A DNA stretch of 64,000 nt from Trypanosoma brucei. Its lineage: Eukaryota. Position numbers and translations under genes: made by a program. Below the pieces are notes generated by a model. The model made no database searches. It was not told the DNA's origin and saw nothing but the letters and a program-made list of their open reading frames with translations. Of this stretch, positions 15,445 through 22,002 are shown piece after piece. The DNA lies in NCBI GenBank assembly GCA_000002445.1, contig CM000208.1:2944001-3008000 (forward strand). Direction: 5' to 3'. How positions within the stretch are numbered: the first letter of the stretch is position 1; the number at the start of each line of letters is the position of its first letter.

Positions 15445-18183
15445 TTAAATAGGTTCCTTAGACGACTTAGCATTATAAACAATTTCTTTCCCACCGCTTG
15501 CACGAGACACACAGCCAAATATGTCGAAGGCCTCCATTAGCATGTGAGTCAAAACCTTCACGACATCTTGGACGATCCACCACAAAATGCAATATATCCA
15601 AACCCAAAGTGGATACAATCTATCCGCAACAGTTTCACCTCGTGCAAGACCCTCGACAGGAACACCATCAGAACTTGATTTCTTCCAAACCGAGGCGGCG
15701 ATCGTCGAGATTACCAGTGAGATCACCGCACCGACCAGCAGTATAGTGCCCGGAGCCATCGAGAAAAAGAACCTTCCACCAGTACGTGAGGAGAATAGAG
15801 TCAAGAAGTCAGAAATCGATATCTTGAGGTACAGGAGAGTAACTATTTTGCCCTCCTTCAAGGAAGGAATGTTGAGTTTGCCAAACCAAGAGTTGGGGTA
15901 CCTTTTCTCATCATAAGCATCAAGAGCCATCCACAGCAGTAGTAGAGACGAGGCACAGGCAACAACAGACATAATTATAGCGCTTGTGAACACAACAGGA
16001 ATGTTCCAACGCTGCGGAAGCTTCGAGGGCACCACACGGTCATATCCAATGGTCATCAGGCACCCGTCGTTCAGGAGCGTGATCAGCATGAACATCATCA
16101 CTGGGAGGTAGAAAACCTGGAATTCGGGGTTCTCAATTCCATAGTCGTGAGGTGTCAACGAGAAGCAGGCGATAAAAAAGAAGCACACCAACTGCATTGT
16201 GGCGGAAATACGGTATGTTAGAAAAGACAACATACGTTGGAACACCTGGCGCGATACAAACATCGCATCAACAACAACACTCAAACCAGGGTCTGTCAGC
16301 ACCATGTCTGCCGCGGCACGAGCGGCGTCTGTCGCGCCCTGTACAGCAATACCGACGTCCGCACGTTTCAGGGCAGGCGCGTCGTTCACACCATCACCAG
16401 TCATCGCGCACGTGTACCCGCGCTGCCGAAGCGCCTCAACGATCAAAAACTTGTGCTCGGGGAAGACCTGTGCGAACCCGCCGACACTCAGCATCATGTC
16501 ACCGTACTTCTCGCCAAGGTCGCTGGGCATATCGTTGACATCCACCTTGGGAAGCTTCTCGGCGGTTAGGATGTTCGGATCAAGGTCCAGCATGCGGCAC
16601 ATTTCCTTCGCAATGAGCACATGGTCACCAGTGATCATCTTTACATCCACGCCATACTGCCTACTACGGCGAATTGTCTCCTTCGTGTCCGGGCGCGGGG
16701 GATCGAGGAACGTCAGGATTCCACAGAGATGCCAACGACCCGCGGAGTCTGTTTTCGCCACAGAGAGGCATCGGATACCGCGCGACGCCAATTTGTCAAT
16801 GATATCGACCACAGAGTCATTGATCTCATCTTGATTGTGCACCATCTCTATAATAACGTGTGGTGCGCCTTTCGTCACACTGAACTTCTCACCACTTCGC
16901 TTATCAACCAATGTAGCGGCCGTTCGTTTCGTCGTTGGATCAAATGGCACGAACTCAAGCTGCTCGTAGTTGTCGCACTCGTCCAGATCTGCAGCACCAA
17001 GTACCATCGTGTCCAGTGCATCACGGGGAGGCTCACGCCACTTTGCTGCAAGCGCGGAAAGTACAAGCAGTGAACGCAGATCGTGACCCTTCTCAAATGT
17101 GAAGCACTGTTCCTGAATCTCCATCTTGTTCAACGTCAGAGTACCGGTTTTGTCAGAGCAAAGCATGTTCACACCAGACATTGTCTCAATGGCTGTCAGT
17201 CTCGTCACAATGATTTTGTGCTTCGACAGCTTCTTTGAACCCACAGCGAGAGTGGTCGTCACAACAATCTCCAAAGCAATAGGAATGGATACCACAAGCA
17301 CTACAACAGCGAACTGCAAGGCATCACGGAACTTTTGCTTGAAATTTACCATCAGATAGATGAAGCAAATCAAGCAAAGTACGAACGAGAAACTCGACAA
17401 GATGACCATCACGCGCATGAGAATTATACGGATACTGCCAATGTCAGCCTCCACAGACTGAAGTAGCGTTGCCGTCTTGCCAAAAAAGGTGCTCTGACCT
17501 GTGTATTGCACCGTCGCATCAACTTCACCACGTACGACATTCGACCCCATCTTCGGCATGTGTTCCGTTCCCATCGTCACAGGAAGTGACTCACCGGTCA
17601 GTGCTGCTTCGTCAACGTCAATCACACCTTCGTTAATCGTGCAGTCAGCGGGAACGGCGGAACCAGACCCAAGCTTCACAAGGTCACCGGGAACCAGTAA
17701 TGCGGCGTCTATCTGCTGCCAGGTACCGTCACGGTAAGCGGTCGCAATAGGTTTCAAAGAGTTCTTCAGTGCAGCGACCGCATCACCAGCTTTTATCGTC
17801 TCATACCACCCAATGAGAGCGTTAGCGAGCTGAATGCCGAGCAGGACGGCACCATCAGCAAAGTGCTGTAACGCAAACTGGATTATTATGACAATCCACA
17901 AAACAATCGGCATAGGGCCCCATAGATTCCGCAAAAATATCAGCCAACTGGGTGTTTTCTTTTCCGGCAGCTCGTTACGACCGTATTTAAGCAACAACTC
18001 CTCTGCTTCCGCGGATGTCAATCCCTTCGAGGGCGGCACCAGTGGTACACTGCCATCATCACCCTCACGGTGCTCACTGATAGCCTTTGATAGCACAGAT
18101 TGGCGGCGTTGCGGTTTCTGTGGCTTGTGCACTTCACCGGCGTCGTTGGTTCCCGGAACACCCTTTGGTCCAGTATCCCCCAT
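15445..18183 (-). CDS. P-type (type IIIA-like) plasma-membrane H+-ATPase, copy B, 912 aa
   Basis: Phosphorylation motif CSDKTGTLT, hinge MITGDHV and GDGVNDAPALKRADVGIAV are present, with about 10 TM helices. It resembles trypanosomatid H+-ATPases (TbHA / TcHA / LDH1 family). It is about 99% identical to copy A except for the last ~60 codons. Confidence 0.95.
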   Translation of the reverse strand: MGDTGPKGVPGTNDAGEVHKPQKPQRRQSVLSKAISEHREGDDGSVPLVPPSKGLTSAEAEELLLKYGRNELPEKKTPSWLIFLRNLWGPMPIVLWIVIIIQFALQHFADGAVLLGIQLANALIGWYETIKAGDAVAALKNSLKPIATAYRDGTWQQIDAALLVPGDLVKLGSGSAVPADCTINEGVIDVDEAALTGESLPVTMGTEHMPKMGSNVVRGEVDATVQYTGQSTFFGKTATLLQSVEADIGSIRIILMRVMVILSSFSFVLCLICFIYLMVNFKQKFRDALQFAVVVLVVSIPIALEIVVTTTLAVGSKKLSKHKIIVTRLTAIETMSGVNMLCSDKTGTLTLNKMEIQEQCFTFEKGHDLRSLLVLSALAAKWREPPRDALDTMVLGAADLDECDNYEQLEFVPFDPTTKRTAATLVDKRSGEKFSVTKGAPHVIIEMVHNQDEINDSVVDIIDKLASRGIRCLSVAKTDSAGRWHLCGILTFLDPPRPDTKETIRRSRQYGVDVKMITGDHVLIAKEMCRMLDLDPNILTAEKLPKVDVNDMPSDLGEKYGDMMLSVGGFAQVFPEHKFLIVEALRQRGYTCAMTGDGVNDAPALKRADVGIAVQGATDAARAAADMVLTDPGLSVVVDAMFVSRQVFQRMLSFLTYRISATMQLVCFFFIACFSLTPHDYGIENPEFQVFYLPVMMFMLITLLNDGCLMTIGYDRVVPSKLPQRWNIPVVFTSAIIMSVVACASSLLLLWMALDAYDEKRYPNSWFGKLNIPSLKEGKIVTLLYLKISISDFLTLFSSRTGGRFFFSMAPGTILLVGAVISLVISTIAASVWKKSSSDGVPVEGLARGETVADRLYPLWVWIYCILWWIVQDVVKVLTHMLMEAFDIFGCVSRASGGKEIVYNAKSSKEPI

Positions 18184-18290
18184 TTGTATATTCCTTTGGC
18201 CTTTACTACCTTAGATGTTACAAGTCTTCGGGAAGGGAAGAAACGAGTGCACAAGTCAGTGTTTCAGCAGTTGCACGACACCGGTTAATT
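15505..18290. repeat. Tandem duplication unit (copy B) of the H+-ATPase locus; period about 3712 bp
   Basis: Near-identical to 19217..22002. Homology includes about 105 nt upstream of the ATG and ends inside the last ~20 codons. Confidence 0.9.
18230..18247 (-). promoter_or_regulatory. Candidate polypyrimidine tract (coding-strand CTCGTTTCTTCCCTTCCC) with downstream AG; putative SL trans-splice acceptor region for ATPase copy B
   Basis: A purine run on the + strand 45-65 nt upstream of the ATG, conserved identically upstream of copy A. The kinetoplastid trans-splicing model needs a poly(Y) tract followed by AG. No experimental support. Confidence 0.35.
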
Positions 18291-21895: not shown

Positions 21896-22002
21896 TTGTA
21901 TATTCCTTTGACCTTTACTACCTTAGATGTTACAAGTCTTCGGGAAGGGAAGAAACGAGTGCACAAGTCAGTGTTTCAGCAGTTGCACGACACCGGTGGA
22001 TT
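19217..22002. repeat. Tandem duplication unit (copy A) of the H+-ATPase locus
   Basis: Near-identical to 15505..18290. The units are separated by unique 3'UTR/intergenic sequence (18291..19216). Confidence 0.9.
21941..21958 (-). promoter_or_regulatory. Candidate polypyrimidine tract / SL acceptor region for ATPase copy A
   Basis: Identical to the element upstream of copy B. Confidence 0.35.

What the first reader, a model, noticed from the sequence alone, without database searches (positions are those of the whole stretch)
15445..22002. Tandem near-identical H+-ATPase paralogues whose divergence is confined to the C-terminal tail and 3'UTR
Two P-type IIIA-like proton-pump genes sit head-to-tail with a 3712-bp period and are about 99% identical over roughly 860 codons. 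The last ~60 codons diverge in patches (GLARGETVADRLYPL versus GLAVGGDTAAKLLPL, then unrelated ends), and the 3' flanks are unrelated. In fungal and plant PMAs the C-terminal tail is an autoinhibitory regulatory domain, and tandem isoforms are known in trypanosomatids (TbHA1-3, TcHA1/2, LDH1A/B). The pattern implies gene conversion across the catalytic body while distinct regulatory tails and stage-specific 3'UTRs are maintained.
Basis: partly seen in the sequence, partly recalled or inferred. Interest (0 to 1): 0.5.

Follow-up and report, generated by a model that had tools for sequence, protein, structure and literature searches.

The report
Known tandem trypanosome proton-pump genes
These are the two published plasma-membrane proton-pump genes TbHA1 and TbHA3 of Trypanosoma brucei, kept almost identical by recombination between the copies except in an outward-facing loop, the last ~20-26 residues and the 3' untranslated regions; the arrangement is real but ordinary and already described.

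Summary
The window is T. brucei brucei TREU927 chromosome 10. The two genes are Tb927.10.12500 (15445-18183, minus strand, 912 aa, TbHA1 type) and Tb927.10.12510 (19133-21895, minus strand, 920 aa, identical to TbHA3). They are cloned, yeast-complementing P3A H+-ATPases.

The copies share a block running from 102 nt upstream of the ATG to codon ~894, with a 3712-nt period. Codons 1-840 are 99.2% identical (dS 0.013). Codons 841-858 are saturated (pS 0.73). Codons 859-894 are 96% identical. The distal tails and 3' flanks are diverged.

Four corrections:
- The body carries 21 clustered differences, giving 12 amino-acid changes.
- The first divergent patch is not in the cytosolic tail. It lies in a kinetoplastid-specific insertion of the exofacial M9-M10 loop.
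- The ends are not unrelated, because both keep a K-E-P motif.
- Published data show both genes are procyclic-up, not differentially stage-specific.

Gene conversion of the body is well supported. A distinct regulatory role for the tails is untested in T. brucei.

Extra: two gene relics flank the pair. One carries the "unique" N-terminus of TbHA2, frameshifted and truncated. This implies TbHA2 is a recombinant of that relic with TbHA3.

Verdict: already known, low interest.

The parts
15445..18183 (-). Tb927.10.12500, TbHA1-type P3A H+-ATPase CDS (912 aa, including stop)
   Evidence: ORF. Exact match to XP_823455.1 of TREU927; one residue (L262S) differs from cloned TbHA1 Q86DE0. Chromosomal coordinates 3030942-3033680. 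Pfam and PDB matches.
19133..21895 (-). Tb927.10.12510, TbHA3 P3A H+-ATPase CDS (920 aa, including stop)
   Evidence: ORF. Exact match to XP_823456.1 = AAP86973.1. Chromosomal coordinates 3034630-3037392.
18184..18285 (-). Shared 102-nt upstream block of TbHA1: polypyrimidine tract CTCGTTTCTTCCCTTCCC, AG splice acceptor, 42-nt 5'UTR (18184-18225)
   Evidence: Sequence. 101/102 identical to the TbHA3 block. Major SL site 42 nt upstream of the ATG (supplementary file 6).
21896..21997 (-). Shared 102-nt upstream block of TbHA3 (same PPT, splice acceptor and 5'UTR)
   Evidence: Sequence. SL site 42 nt upstream of the ATG.
15610..15663 (-). TbHA1 codons 841-858: hyperdivergent patch in the exofacial M9-M10 loop (…VPVEGLARGETVADRLYP)
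   Evidence: 25/54 nt differ, pS 0.73, dN 0.48. Lies between predicted helices 812-832 and 857-886. Falls in an insertion relative to AHA2, just before the stretch that aligns with AHA2 M10. T. congolense has the same type, GEKVADRL.
19322..19375 (-). TbHA3 codons 841-858: the alternative loop version (…VPTEGLAVGGDTAAKLLP)
15502..15609 (-). TbHA1 codons 859-894: M10 plus conserved proximal cytosolic tail (LWVWIYCILWWIVQDVVKVL THMLMEAFDIFGCVSR). Partner in TbHA3 is 19214-19321.
   Evidence: 4/108 nt differ, dS 0.10, one replacement T879A. Strongly conserved across kinetoplastids.
15445..15501 (-). TbHA1 distal tail, codons 895-912 plus stop (ASGGKEIVYNAKSSKEPI*)
   Evidence: Resembles the T. 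congolense tail SRANGGKE…NEPI.
19133..19213 (-). TbHA3 distal tail, codons 895-920 plus stop (SGRGADVECGSVCKDGEGGAPKEPTL*)
   Evidence: The K-E-P-T-L end resembles T. cruzi …SKEPTV.
18286..19132 (-). TbHA3 3'UTR / intergenic spacer (847 nt), unrelated to the TbHA1 3' flank; 28% T, no T-run of 6 or more
12656..15444 (-). TbHA1 3'UTR and downstream spacer; first 847 nt are 41% T with eight T-runs of 6 or more
22031..22187 (-). Relic 'frag b': copy of CDS nt 228-385 (97.5%), runs out of homology at …GWYRNKEIQIR*
   Evidence: Conserved in T. b. gambiense.
22188..22368 (-). Leader encoding the 'TbHA2-specific' N-terminus (MTYGLPRNHSLEKKHKNH…TTTTTTT), frameshifted here; its ATG lies inside the last codons of Tb927.10.12520 (stop at 22322)
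   Evidence: tblastn of TbHA2 Q7Z1X2: aa 1-24 at 22368-22297 and aa 21-113 at 22309-22031, in different frames. Sequence.
12337..12655 (-). Relic 'frag a': copy of CDS nt 355-673 (99.4-99.7%; TbHA3-type G at nt 666), 458 nt upstream of the kinesin Tb927.10.12490 ATG
   Evidence: Conserved in T. b. gambiense. Absent in T. vivax.

Best explanation
The window holds the published tandem pair of Trypanosoma brucei plasma-membrane P3A H+-ATPase genes, TbHA3 (upstream) and TbHA1 (downstream). They lie inside one minus-strand polycistronic unit, between Tb927.10.12520 and the kinesin Tb927.10.12490.

The duplication is old relative to the body identity. Repeated intra-array gene conversion or unequal exchange has homogenised a block that runs from 102 nt upstream of the ATG (polypyrimidine tract, splice acceptor, 5'UTR) to about codon 840. 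Codons 859-894 were homogenised less recently.

Conversion stops where homology collapses. A 54-nt patch in the exofacial M9-M10 loop, the last 18-26 codons and the 3'UTRs keep ancient divergence. Small clusters of unconverted differences remain in the body.

Shown here: gene identity, homology boundaries, the divergence profile, topology by alignment, and mosaic relatives. Inferred: conversion as the process. Also inferred: the position of the 3' boundary is set mainly by the heavily mismatched patch and the unconstrained distal tail, not necessarily by selection for different regulatory tails.

Functionally, both proteins are proton pumps that set pH and membrane potential. The different 3'UTRs (U-rich for TbHA1, not for TbHA3) and tail ends give scope for separate post-transcriptional or post-translational control. 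Such separate control has not been demonstrated.
For: Identity:
- Exact matches to XP_823455.1 and XP_823456.1 (= AAP86973.1, TbHA3) of TREU927.
- The review lists TB8 = TbHA3 (920 aa) and TB9 = TbHA1 (912 aa) as a tandem pair on chromosome 10. It reports yeast complementation, plasma-membrane localisation and RNAi phenotypes.
- Family: Pfam; AHA2, PMA1 and Pma1 as best solved relatives; DKTGT, TGES and GDGVNDAP motifs in the translation.

Conversion:
- dS is 0.013 in codons 1-840, pS is 0.73 in codons 841-858, dS is 0.10 in codons 859-894, and the distal tail is saturated.
- The 5' boundary at -102 is sharp.
- The 3' flanks cannot be aligned.
- The longest identical run is 518 nt, P < 5e-5. 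Residual differences are clustered, P < 1e-5.
- The paralogues are 780/792 identical in the body, against 689-695/792 to T. congolense and 675-678/792 to T. vivax.
- The TbHA1 loop and tail resemble those of T. congolense (GE.VADRL; SRA.GGKE…EPI). The TbHA3 end, KEPTL, resembles T. cruzi KEPTV. So both 3' end types look older than the body identity.

Ongoing exchange:
- The single T. b. gambiense gene is TbHA1-like but has TbHA3-type sites at nt 141-147, 1845, 2529 and 2679, and it has the TbHA3 upstream flank.
- TbHA2 is a relic 5' end joined to a TbHA3 body.

Generality:
- T. cruzi and T. melophagium paralogues are also near-identical up to codon ~894 and differ after it.
- Leishmania LDH1A/B differ at 20 residues, 15 of them in the last 37.
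- Concerted evolution with remodelled UTRs is documented for T. brucei arrays.
Against: - Only two full copies plus one other subspecies were available at nucleotide level.
- No T. congolense locus could be fetched, so the age of the duplication rests on short peptide resemblances: 5 of 7 variable loop positions and about 11 of 20 tail positions.
- T. vivax has a single copy and no relics, so the duplication may postdate that split.
- The T. b. gambiense mosaic could be a collapsed assembly consensus rather than a real recombinant. The genome paper itself warns about copy number in arrays.
- The body differences are rich in replacements (dN/dS about 0.5, 12 amino-acid changes, stable between TREU927 and Lister 427). 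This hints that some selection, not conversion mechanics alone, shapes what survives.
Confidence: 0.82

Rival explanations
1. The divergent 3' end is actively kept different by selection because the two tails are distinct autoinhibitory regulatory domains and the two 3'UTRs confer different stage-specific expression. Conversion is tolerated only in the catalytic body.
For: - In Leishmania donovani the equivalent pair LDH1A/B has autoinhibitory tails. Swapping the last 8 residues changes low-pH growth in yeast, and LDH1B is amastigote-up.
- The two T. brucei 3' flanks differ strongly in composition: 41% T with eight U-runs, against 28% T with none.
- The tails differ in their phospho-acceptor residues. 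TbHA1 has …KSSKEPI. TbHA3 has a penultimate Thr, …KEPTL.
- The isoform-specific residues are identical in TREU927 and Lister 427.
Against: - The largest divergent patch is an exofacial loop, not the tail.
- The distal tail shows pN at least equal to pS, is poorly conserved between species and has low predicted order (pLDDT about 30).
- All TbHA isoforms are reported procyclic-up. Both genes are called PCF-up by translational efficiency.
- Truncating the TcHA1 tail has no effect.
- A 25-mismatch patch next to a 108-nt island would block conversion tracts without any selection.
Confidence: 0.3
2. A young tandem duplication without gene conversion. The body is 99% identical simply because the copy is recent, and one copy acquired a new 3' end because the duplication breakpoint fell inside the CDS.
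For: Low body dS (0.013) is of the same order as the TREU927-gambiense flank divergence of 1.1-1.8%. T. vivax has one copy.
Against: - A simple tandem duplication of -102..codon 894 would fuse copy 1 directly to copy 2. Instead TbHA3 has its own 26-codon tail and an 847-nt spacer.
- The tails are homologous, sharing the K-E-P island, yet saturated.
- The loop patch is flanked on both sides by near-identical sequence and has pS 0.73.
- Each 3' end type resembles a different outgroup.
- The differences are clustered rather than evenly spread.
Confidence: 0.08
3. An assembly artefact: a mis-assembled or falsely duplicated repeat in the reference chromosome.
For: Tandem arrays are prone to copy-number errors in the Sanger-era assemblies. 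The gambiense assembly has only one copy.
Against: - Both isoforms were independently cloned from Lister 427. TbHA3 is identical and TbHA1 differs by one residue.
- Each copy has unique flanks.
- Each has its own mapped spliced-leader site, with 3609 and 1044 tags.
- The 427 assembly also lists 920- and 912-aa genes.
Confidence: 0.02

Closest known systems
TbHA1 / TbHA3 (and TbHA2) of Trypanosoma brucei (Luo, Fang & Docampo 2006, J Biol Chem 281:21963, as summarised in PMC6884021)
   Same: They are the same genes. The 920-aa product equals AAP86973.1 (TbHA3). The 912-aa product differs from Q86DE0 (TbHA1) at one residue. They form a tandem pair on chromosome 10, complement yeast, localise to the plasma membrane and are procyclic-up.
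   Different: Nothing differs in kind. Details added here are the exact homology boundaries, the loop-versus-tail topology of the differences, and the relics that explain TbHA2. The primary paper could not be read, so I cannot say which of these it already notes.
Leishmania donovani LDH1A / LDH1B tandem H+-ATPase pair (Meade et al. 1987, 1989; Grigore & Meade, as cited in PMC6884021)
   Same: A tandem pair with a near-identical body. Differences are concentrated at the C-terminal end (15 of 20 in the last 37 residues), and the transcripts differ.
   Different: In Leishmania the tail is shown to be autoinhibitory and isoform-specific, and expression is differentially stage-regulated. Neither is shown for T. 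brucei. The Leishmania tail is much longer (975-aa protein). T. brucei also has the exofacial-loop patch, which other species' paralogues lack.
Trypanosoma cruzi TcHA1 / TcHA2
   Same: Tandemly linked P3A pumps with near-identical bodies.
   Different: The T. cruzi isoforms differ mainly at the N-terminus and in localisation (reservosomes). C-terminal truncation of TcHA1 has no effect.
Concerted evolution of T. brucei tandem gene arrays (Jackson 2007, PMC1855330; Jackson et al. 2010, PMC2854126)
   Same: Homogenised coding sequence. Divergent copies come with remodelled, unalignable UTRs and distinctive C-termini. Subspecies-specific mosaics occur.
   Different: Per the 2010 genome paper, the arrays defined in the 2007 study had more than three copies. 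Neither text names the H+-ATPase pair.
Fungal Pma1 / plant AHA2 C-terminal regulatory (R) domain
   Same: A cytosolic extension after M10 (34 and 42 residues here, a length I recall as similar to yeast Pma1) containing Ser/Thr residues.
   Different: There is no adjacent Ser-Thr pair as in Pma1. There is no ~100-residue plant R domain. The main divergent patch lies outside this region.

Membership tests
P3A (plasma-membrane type) H+-ATPase | P-type ATPase core domains and catalytic motifs (DKTGT phosphorylation site, TGES, MITGD, GDGVNDAP) | tested here: met
   Pfam E1-E2_ATPase 4.7e-52, Cation_ATPase_N and Hydrolase. CSDKTGTLT (342-350), LTGESLP (195-201), MITGD (516-520) and GDGVNDAP (596-603) are read directly in both translations.
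P3A (plasma-membrane type) H+-ATPase | Closest solved relatives are P3A pumps rather than P2 or other subfamilies; the M6 Asp proton acceptor is conserved | tested here: met
   AHA2 5KSD 2.1e-148, N. crassa PMA1 8.2e-136 and yeast Pma1 1.7e-135, against 5e-75 or weaker for Mg2+, Ca2+ and Na+/K+ pumps. LNDG of M6 aligns with AHA2 LNDG; this is D684 by my recollection of AHA2 numbering.
P3A (plasma-membrane type) H+-ATPase | Proton-pump activity | not testable with these tools
   Literature only: TbHA1-3 complement a yeast Pma1-deficient strain, and RNAi lowers intracellular pH.
Tandem array under concerted evolution (gene conversion) | Head-to-tail copies on one strand with sharp homology boundaries and unrelated flanks | tested here: met
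   Period 3712. The block runs from -102 to CDS nt 2682, with flanks at random identity.
Tandem array under concerted evolution (gene conversion) | Synonymous divergence in the homogenised block far below that of adjacent homologous sequence; identical runs longer than chance | tested here: met
   dS 0.013 against pS 0.73 and 0.58. Longest run 518 nt, P < 5e-5.
Tandem array under concerted evolution (gene conversion) | Paralogues group by species in the converted part, while the unconverted parts keep trans-specific affinities | tested here: inconclusive
   Body: 98.5% between paralogues against 85-88% to T. congolense and T. vivax. Loop and tail: TbHA1 type resembles T. congolense, and the TbHA3 end resembles T. 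cruzi, but the segments are very short. No second T. congolense copy was available.
Tandem array under concerted evolution (gene conversion) | Recombinant mosaics among strains | tested here: met
   The gambiense copy is mosaic. TbHA2 is the relic 5' end joined to a TbHA3 body. Caveat: assembly collapse or a cloning chimera is not excluded.
C-terminal autoinhibitory (R) domain of P3A pumps | Cytosolic extension following M10 | tested here: met
   M10 is about 859-878 by alignment to AHA2 and by the predicted helix 857-886. That leaves 34 residues (TbHA1) and 42 residues (TbHA3).
C-terminal autoinhibitory (R) domain of P3A pumps | Regulatory phosphosite motif: adjacent Ser-Thr as in Pma1, or a penultimate Thr (14-3-3 site) as in plant AHAs | tested here: inconclusive
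   Neither tail has an adjacent Ser-Thr pair (the review says the same). TbHA3 ends …KEPTL with a penultimate Thr, and TbHA1 ends …KEPI without one. Whether this Thr is phosphorylated or binds 14-3-3 is unknown.
C-terminal autoinhibitory (R) domain of P3A pumps | Truncation of the tail activates the pump | not testable with these tools
   Shown for LDH1A/B, not seen for TcHA1, and no T. brucei result is given in the review.

The most novel reading that the evidence does not exclude
The third published isoform, TbHA2, is not an independent ancestral gene. Its 'unique' N-terminus is the translated 3' end and 3'UTR of the upstream gene Tb927.10.12520, fused to a 158-nt relic of the ATPase. Its body arose by homologous exchange (or a cloning chimera) between that relic and TbHA3. 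In TREU927 and DAL972 the relic is frameshifted and truncated.

Separately, the real isoform differences between TbHA1 and TbHA3 concentrate in two kinetoplastid-specific exofacial loop insertions (M5-M6 and M9-M10) rather than in the regulatory tail. This would point to an extracellular-face difference (partner, drug or ion access, or immune exposure) rather than to autoinhibition.
Probability: 0.5. Interest if true: 0.3.

Novelty: already known. Interest (0 to 1): 0.12.

Why it matters
The pumps themselves matter. They set membrane potential and cytosolic pH in T. brucei, and their knock-down reduces pentamidine susceptibility 8-fold. The tandem arrangement, the near-identity and the C-terminal differences are already in the literature, so the finding adds no new biology.

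Three practical points follow from this re-examination:
- Reads from about 93% of either CDS cannot be assigned to one copy, if I read that supplementary column correctly. Isoform-specific expression claims therefore need the loop patch, distal tail or 3'UTR.
- Isoform-specific antibodies or tags should target residues 843-857 (exofacial) or residues from 895 on.
- TbHA2 should be treated as a recombinant of a flanking relic with TbHA3, not as a third reference-genome gene.

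Tried and rejected
- 'Simple indel / alternative frame' explanation of the tails. I translated all three frames of both 3' ends and found no frame of one that matches the other. The gapped nucleotide alignment needs many indels. Rejected.
- AlphaFold2 model from a 19-sequence alignment. Mean pLDDT was 42.5. That is too poor for fold searches, so I used only its helix boundaries, and only where the AHA2 profile alignment agrees.
- Exact-protein look-up of TbHA3 in assemblies found nothing on record. 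TbHA2 and cloned TbHA1 have no contigs on record. So the Lister 427 locus could not be inspected.
- The primary paper, Luo et al. 2006, is not held.
- I looked for the pair in Jackson 2007 and in the gambiense genome paper. Neither names it.
- I searched the T. vivax syntenic locus for extra copies or relics. There are none.
- A single-event model (insertion or circle integration) for the 31-nt overlap between the two relics. Two random relics of these sizes would overlap about 17% of the time, so I did not pursue it.
- The AT-rich stretch at 50-58 kb has no tandem repeats and no long ORFs. I left it.

Full report
**What is there**

All ORFs of 200 aa or more that are not nested inside a longer minus-strand ORF lie on the minus strand, as expected for a trypanosomatid polycistronic unit. 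Two of them, 15445-18183 (912 aa) and 19133-21895 (920 aa), are head-to-tail copies with a 3712-nt period. Both carry E1-E2_ATPase, Cation_ATPase_N and HAD-hydrolase domains. Their best solved relatives are the P3A proton pumps AHA2 (2.1e-148), Neurospora PMA1 and yeast Pma1, far ahead of Mg2+, Ca2+ and Na+/K+ pumps. The DKTGT, TGES, MITGD and GDGVNDAP motifs can be read directly in the translations.

**Identity**

Exact-sequence look-up places both proteins in T. brucei brucei TREU927 as XP_823455.1 and XP_823456.1, on a 4.05-Mb contig. The 920-aa protein is identical to AAP86973.1.

The P-type ATPase review PMC6884021 lists them as TB9 = TbHA1 (912 aa, Q86DE0) and TB8 = TbHA3 (920 aa). [quoted passage not shown] Supplementary tables of Jensen et al. 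2014 give the coordinates of Tb927.10.12500 (3030942-3033680) and Tb927.10.12510 (3034630-3037392). These fix the window as chromosome 10 position minus 3015497. Knock-down of HA1-3 reduces pentamidine susceptibility 8-fold.

**Check of the observation**

BLASTN aligns 15502-18285 with 19214-21997 at 98.35%. The sliding-window and site lists divide the gene into zones:

| Zone | Differences | Divergence |
|---|---|---|
| 102 nt upstream of the ATG | 1 in 102 nt | – |
| Codons 1-840 | 21 in 2520 nt | dS 0.0134, dN 0.0068 |
| Codons 841-858 | 25 in 54 nt | pS 0.73, dN 0.48 |
| Codons 859-894 | 4 in 108 nt | dS 0.10 |
| Distal tails (18 vs 26 codons) and 3' flanks | – | essentially random |

- Concentration of the differences at the 3' end is overwhelming (P = 8.5e-23).
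- The longest identical run, 518 nt, is far beyond chance.
- The shared upstream block contains the polypyrimidine tract CTCGTTTCTTCCCTTCCC and the AG acceptor. Spliced-leader mapping puts the major site 42 nt upstream of the ATG in both genes.

**Corrections to the observation**

- *The body is not free of divergence.* The 21 differences fall in tight clusters (permutation P < 1e-5). They change 12 residues: V49L, D222E, I272A, I445L, E446Q, H449Y, A541V, D551N, Q615H, M663L, N685D and E687K. All 12 isoform-specific residues are the same in the Lister 427 clones.
- *The ends are not unrelated.* A 12-nt island encoding K-E-P survives just before both stop codons, and an EP motif near the C-terminus is shared across Trypanosoma.
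- *The tails are not frameshift versions of each other*.

**Topology**

A profile of 19 kinetoplastid pumps aligns LWVWIYCILWWIVQDV with AHA2 residues ~811-825. From prior knowledge of AHA2 topology, that stretch is transmembrane helix 10. The alignment places the variable patch in a ~7-residue insertion immediately before that stretch. A low-confidence AlphaFold2 model agrees on helices 812-832 and 857-886.

P3A pumps have ten helices with both termini cytosolic (established knowledge; structures 5KSD, 7VH5, 7NY1). The M9-M10 loop is therefore exofacial.

The cytosolic tail is residues 879-912/920. Its proximal half (…HMLMEAFDIFGCVSR) is conserved throughout kinetoplastids, and only residues from 895 on differ. 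Two of the 12 body replacements (N685D, E687K) fall in another kinetoplastid-specific insertion, in the exofacial M5-M6 loop.

**Why the pattern exists**

The contrast between dS 0.013 in the body and saturation in flanking homologous codons is hard to reconcile with one duplication date and a uniform rate.

- The paralogues are 98.5% identical in the body, against 87% to T. congolense and 85% to T. vivax.
- The TbHA1 loop and tail resemble the T. congolense protein (GEKVADRL; SRANGGKE…NEPI). The TbHA3 end, KEPTL, resembles T. cruzi KEPTV.
- A plain recent tandem duplication would not give TbHA3 its own tail and an 847-nt private spacer.
- Exchange among copies is visible directly. The single T. 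b. gambiense gene has the TbHA3 upstream flank and a TbHA1 body and 3' end, with TbHA3-type sites at nt 141-147, 1845, 2529 and 2679. An assembly collapse cannot be excluded for that draft.
- T. cruzi and T. melophagium paralogues also stay near-identical to codon ~894 and diverge after it. Leishmania LDH1A/B do the same.
- Concerted evolution with remodelled UTRs is documented for T. brucei arrays in general.

I therefore accept gene conversion or unequal exchange of the block from -102 to about codon 840, with older homogenisation of codons 859-894. My confidence in this is about 0.8.

**What is not supported**

Selection for distinct regulatory tails is possible but not shown.

- Distal-tail pN is at least pS. 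The segment is poorly conserved and has low predicted order.
- A 25-mismatch patch followed by only 108 nt of homology would by itself stop conversion tracts.
- The tail is autoinhibitory in Leishmania LDH1A/B, but truncating T. cruzi TcHA1 has no effect, and the review gives no T. brucei result.
- The 3' flanks do differ in kind: 41% T with eight U-runs for TbHA1, against 28% T with none for TbHA3.
- All isoforms are reported procyclic-up. Ribosome profiling classifies both genes as PCF-up through translational efficiency, with very similar counts. A column I take to be the percentage of non-unique CDS is ~93% for each, so those data cannot separate the copies.

**Surroundings**

Two relics of the same gene, in the same orientation, flank the pair.

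- *Frag b* (22031-22187) copies CDS nt 228-385.
- *Frag a* (12337-12655) copies CDS nt 355-673 and sits 458 nt upstream of the kinesin ATG.
- Both are present in T. b. gambiense and absent from the single-copy T. vivax locus, which is otherwise syntenic.

Immediately upstream of frag b, 22188-22368 encodes the N-terminus that defines TbHA2 (Q7Z1X2). Here it is split by a frameshift in a homopolymer run, and in DAL972 it also has an in-frame stop. Its ATG lies within the last codons of Tb927.10.12520.

TbHA2 equals this leader, plus the two frag-b-specific residues (R89, M95), plus a TbHA3 body and tail. It is therefore best explained as a recombinant, or a cloning chimera, between frag b and TbHA3. 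The exchange point lies between CDS nt ~285 and ~380. No intact TbHA2 exists in TREU927 or DAL972, and the review lists only the 920- and 912-aa genes for the Lister 427 assembly. I could not inspect a 427 locus or the primary paper.

**Verdict**

The 'regulatory tail' and 'stage-specific 3'UTR' parts are only analogies from Leishmania, and they rest partly on a topological misassignment. The locus is already known, so interest is low. The only mildly new points are the exofacial location of the main isoform differences and the relic origin of TbHA2.

Noticed in passing
window 22031-22368 (minus strand): A truncated relic of the ATPase (CDS nt 228-385) is preceded by the sequence that encodes the 'unique' N-terminus of the published TbHA2. 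That leader is frameshifted in TREU927, and in DAL972 it also has an in-frame stop. Its ATG lies inside the 3' end of Tb927.10.12520. TbHA2-specific residues R89 and M95 are those of the relic, so TbHA2 looks like a recombinant or chimera of this relic with TbHA3.
   Followed up: partly
window 12337-12655 (minus strand): A second relic copies CDS nt 355-673 at 99.4-100% identity to the live genes. It lies 2.8 kb downstream of TbHA1 and 458 nt upstream of the kinesin ATG, between the kinesin's alternative and major spliced-leader sites. Its first 31 nt overlap the last 31 nt of the other relic in gene coordinates. Its origin is unexplained, and its near-identity suggests it still takes part in conversion.
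   Followed up: partly
L001 10001-12739 (T. b. gambiense DAL972, FN554973.1): The locus has a single ATPase gene with the TbHA3 upstream flank, a TbHA1-type body, tail and 3' flank, and small TbHA3-type patches (nt 141-147, 1845, 2529, 2679). This is either an unequal-crossover deletion product with conversion patches or a collapsed draft assembly.
   Followed up: partly
window 16131-16137 (TbHA1 codons 685, 687) and 19843-19849 (TbHA3): Two of the 12 body replacements (N685D, E687K) lie in a kinetoplastid-specific insertion of the exofacial M5-M6 loop. With the M9-M10 patch, 10 of the 21 replacements upstream of the distal tail face outward.
   Followed up: partly
window 19136-19141 (TbHA3 C-terminal codons): TbHA3 ends …KEPTL with a penultimate Thr, and T. 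cruzi ends …KEPTV. This is formally like the penultimate-Thr 14-3-3 site of plant H+-ATPases. TbHA1 ends …KEPI without it. The resemblance is from memory of the plant system and was not tested.
   Followed up: no
window 16199-16834 and 19911-20546 (plus strand): Identical 211-aa antisense ORFs sit inside both ATPase genes. They are most likely non-coding by-products of the duplicated sequence.
   Followed up: no
window 49989-57635: A ~7.6-kb AT-rich stretch (GC 0.32-0.38) has no ORF of 200 aa or more and no tandem repeats, and lies between two minus-strand genes. Its nature was not determined.
   Followed up: partly
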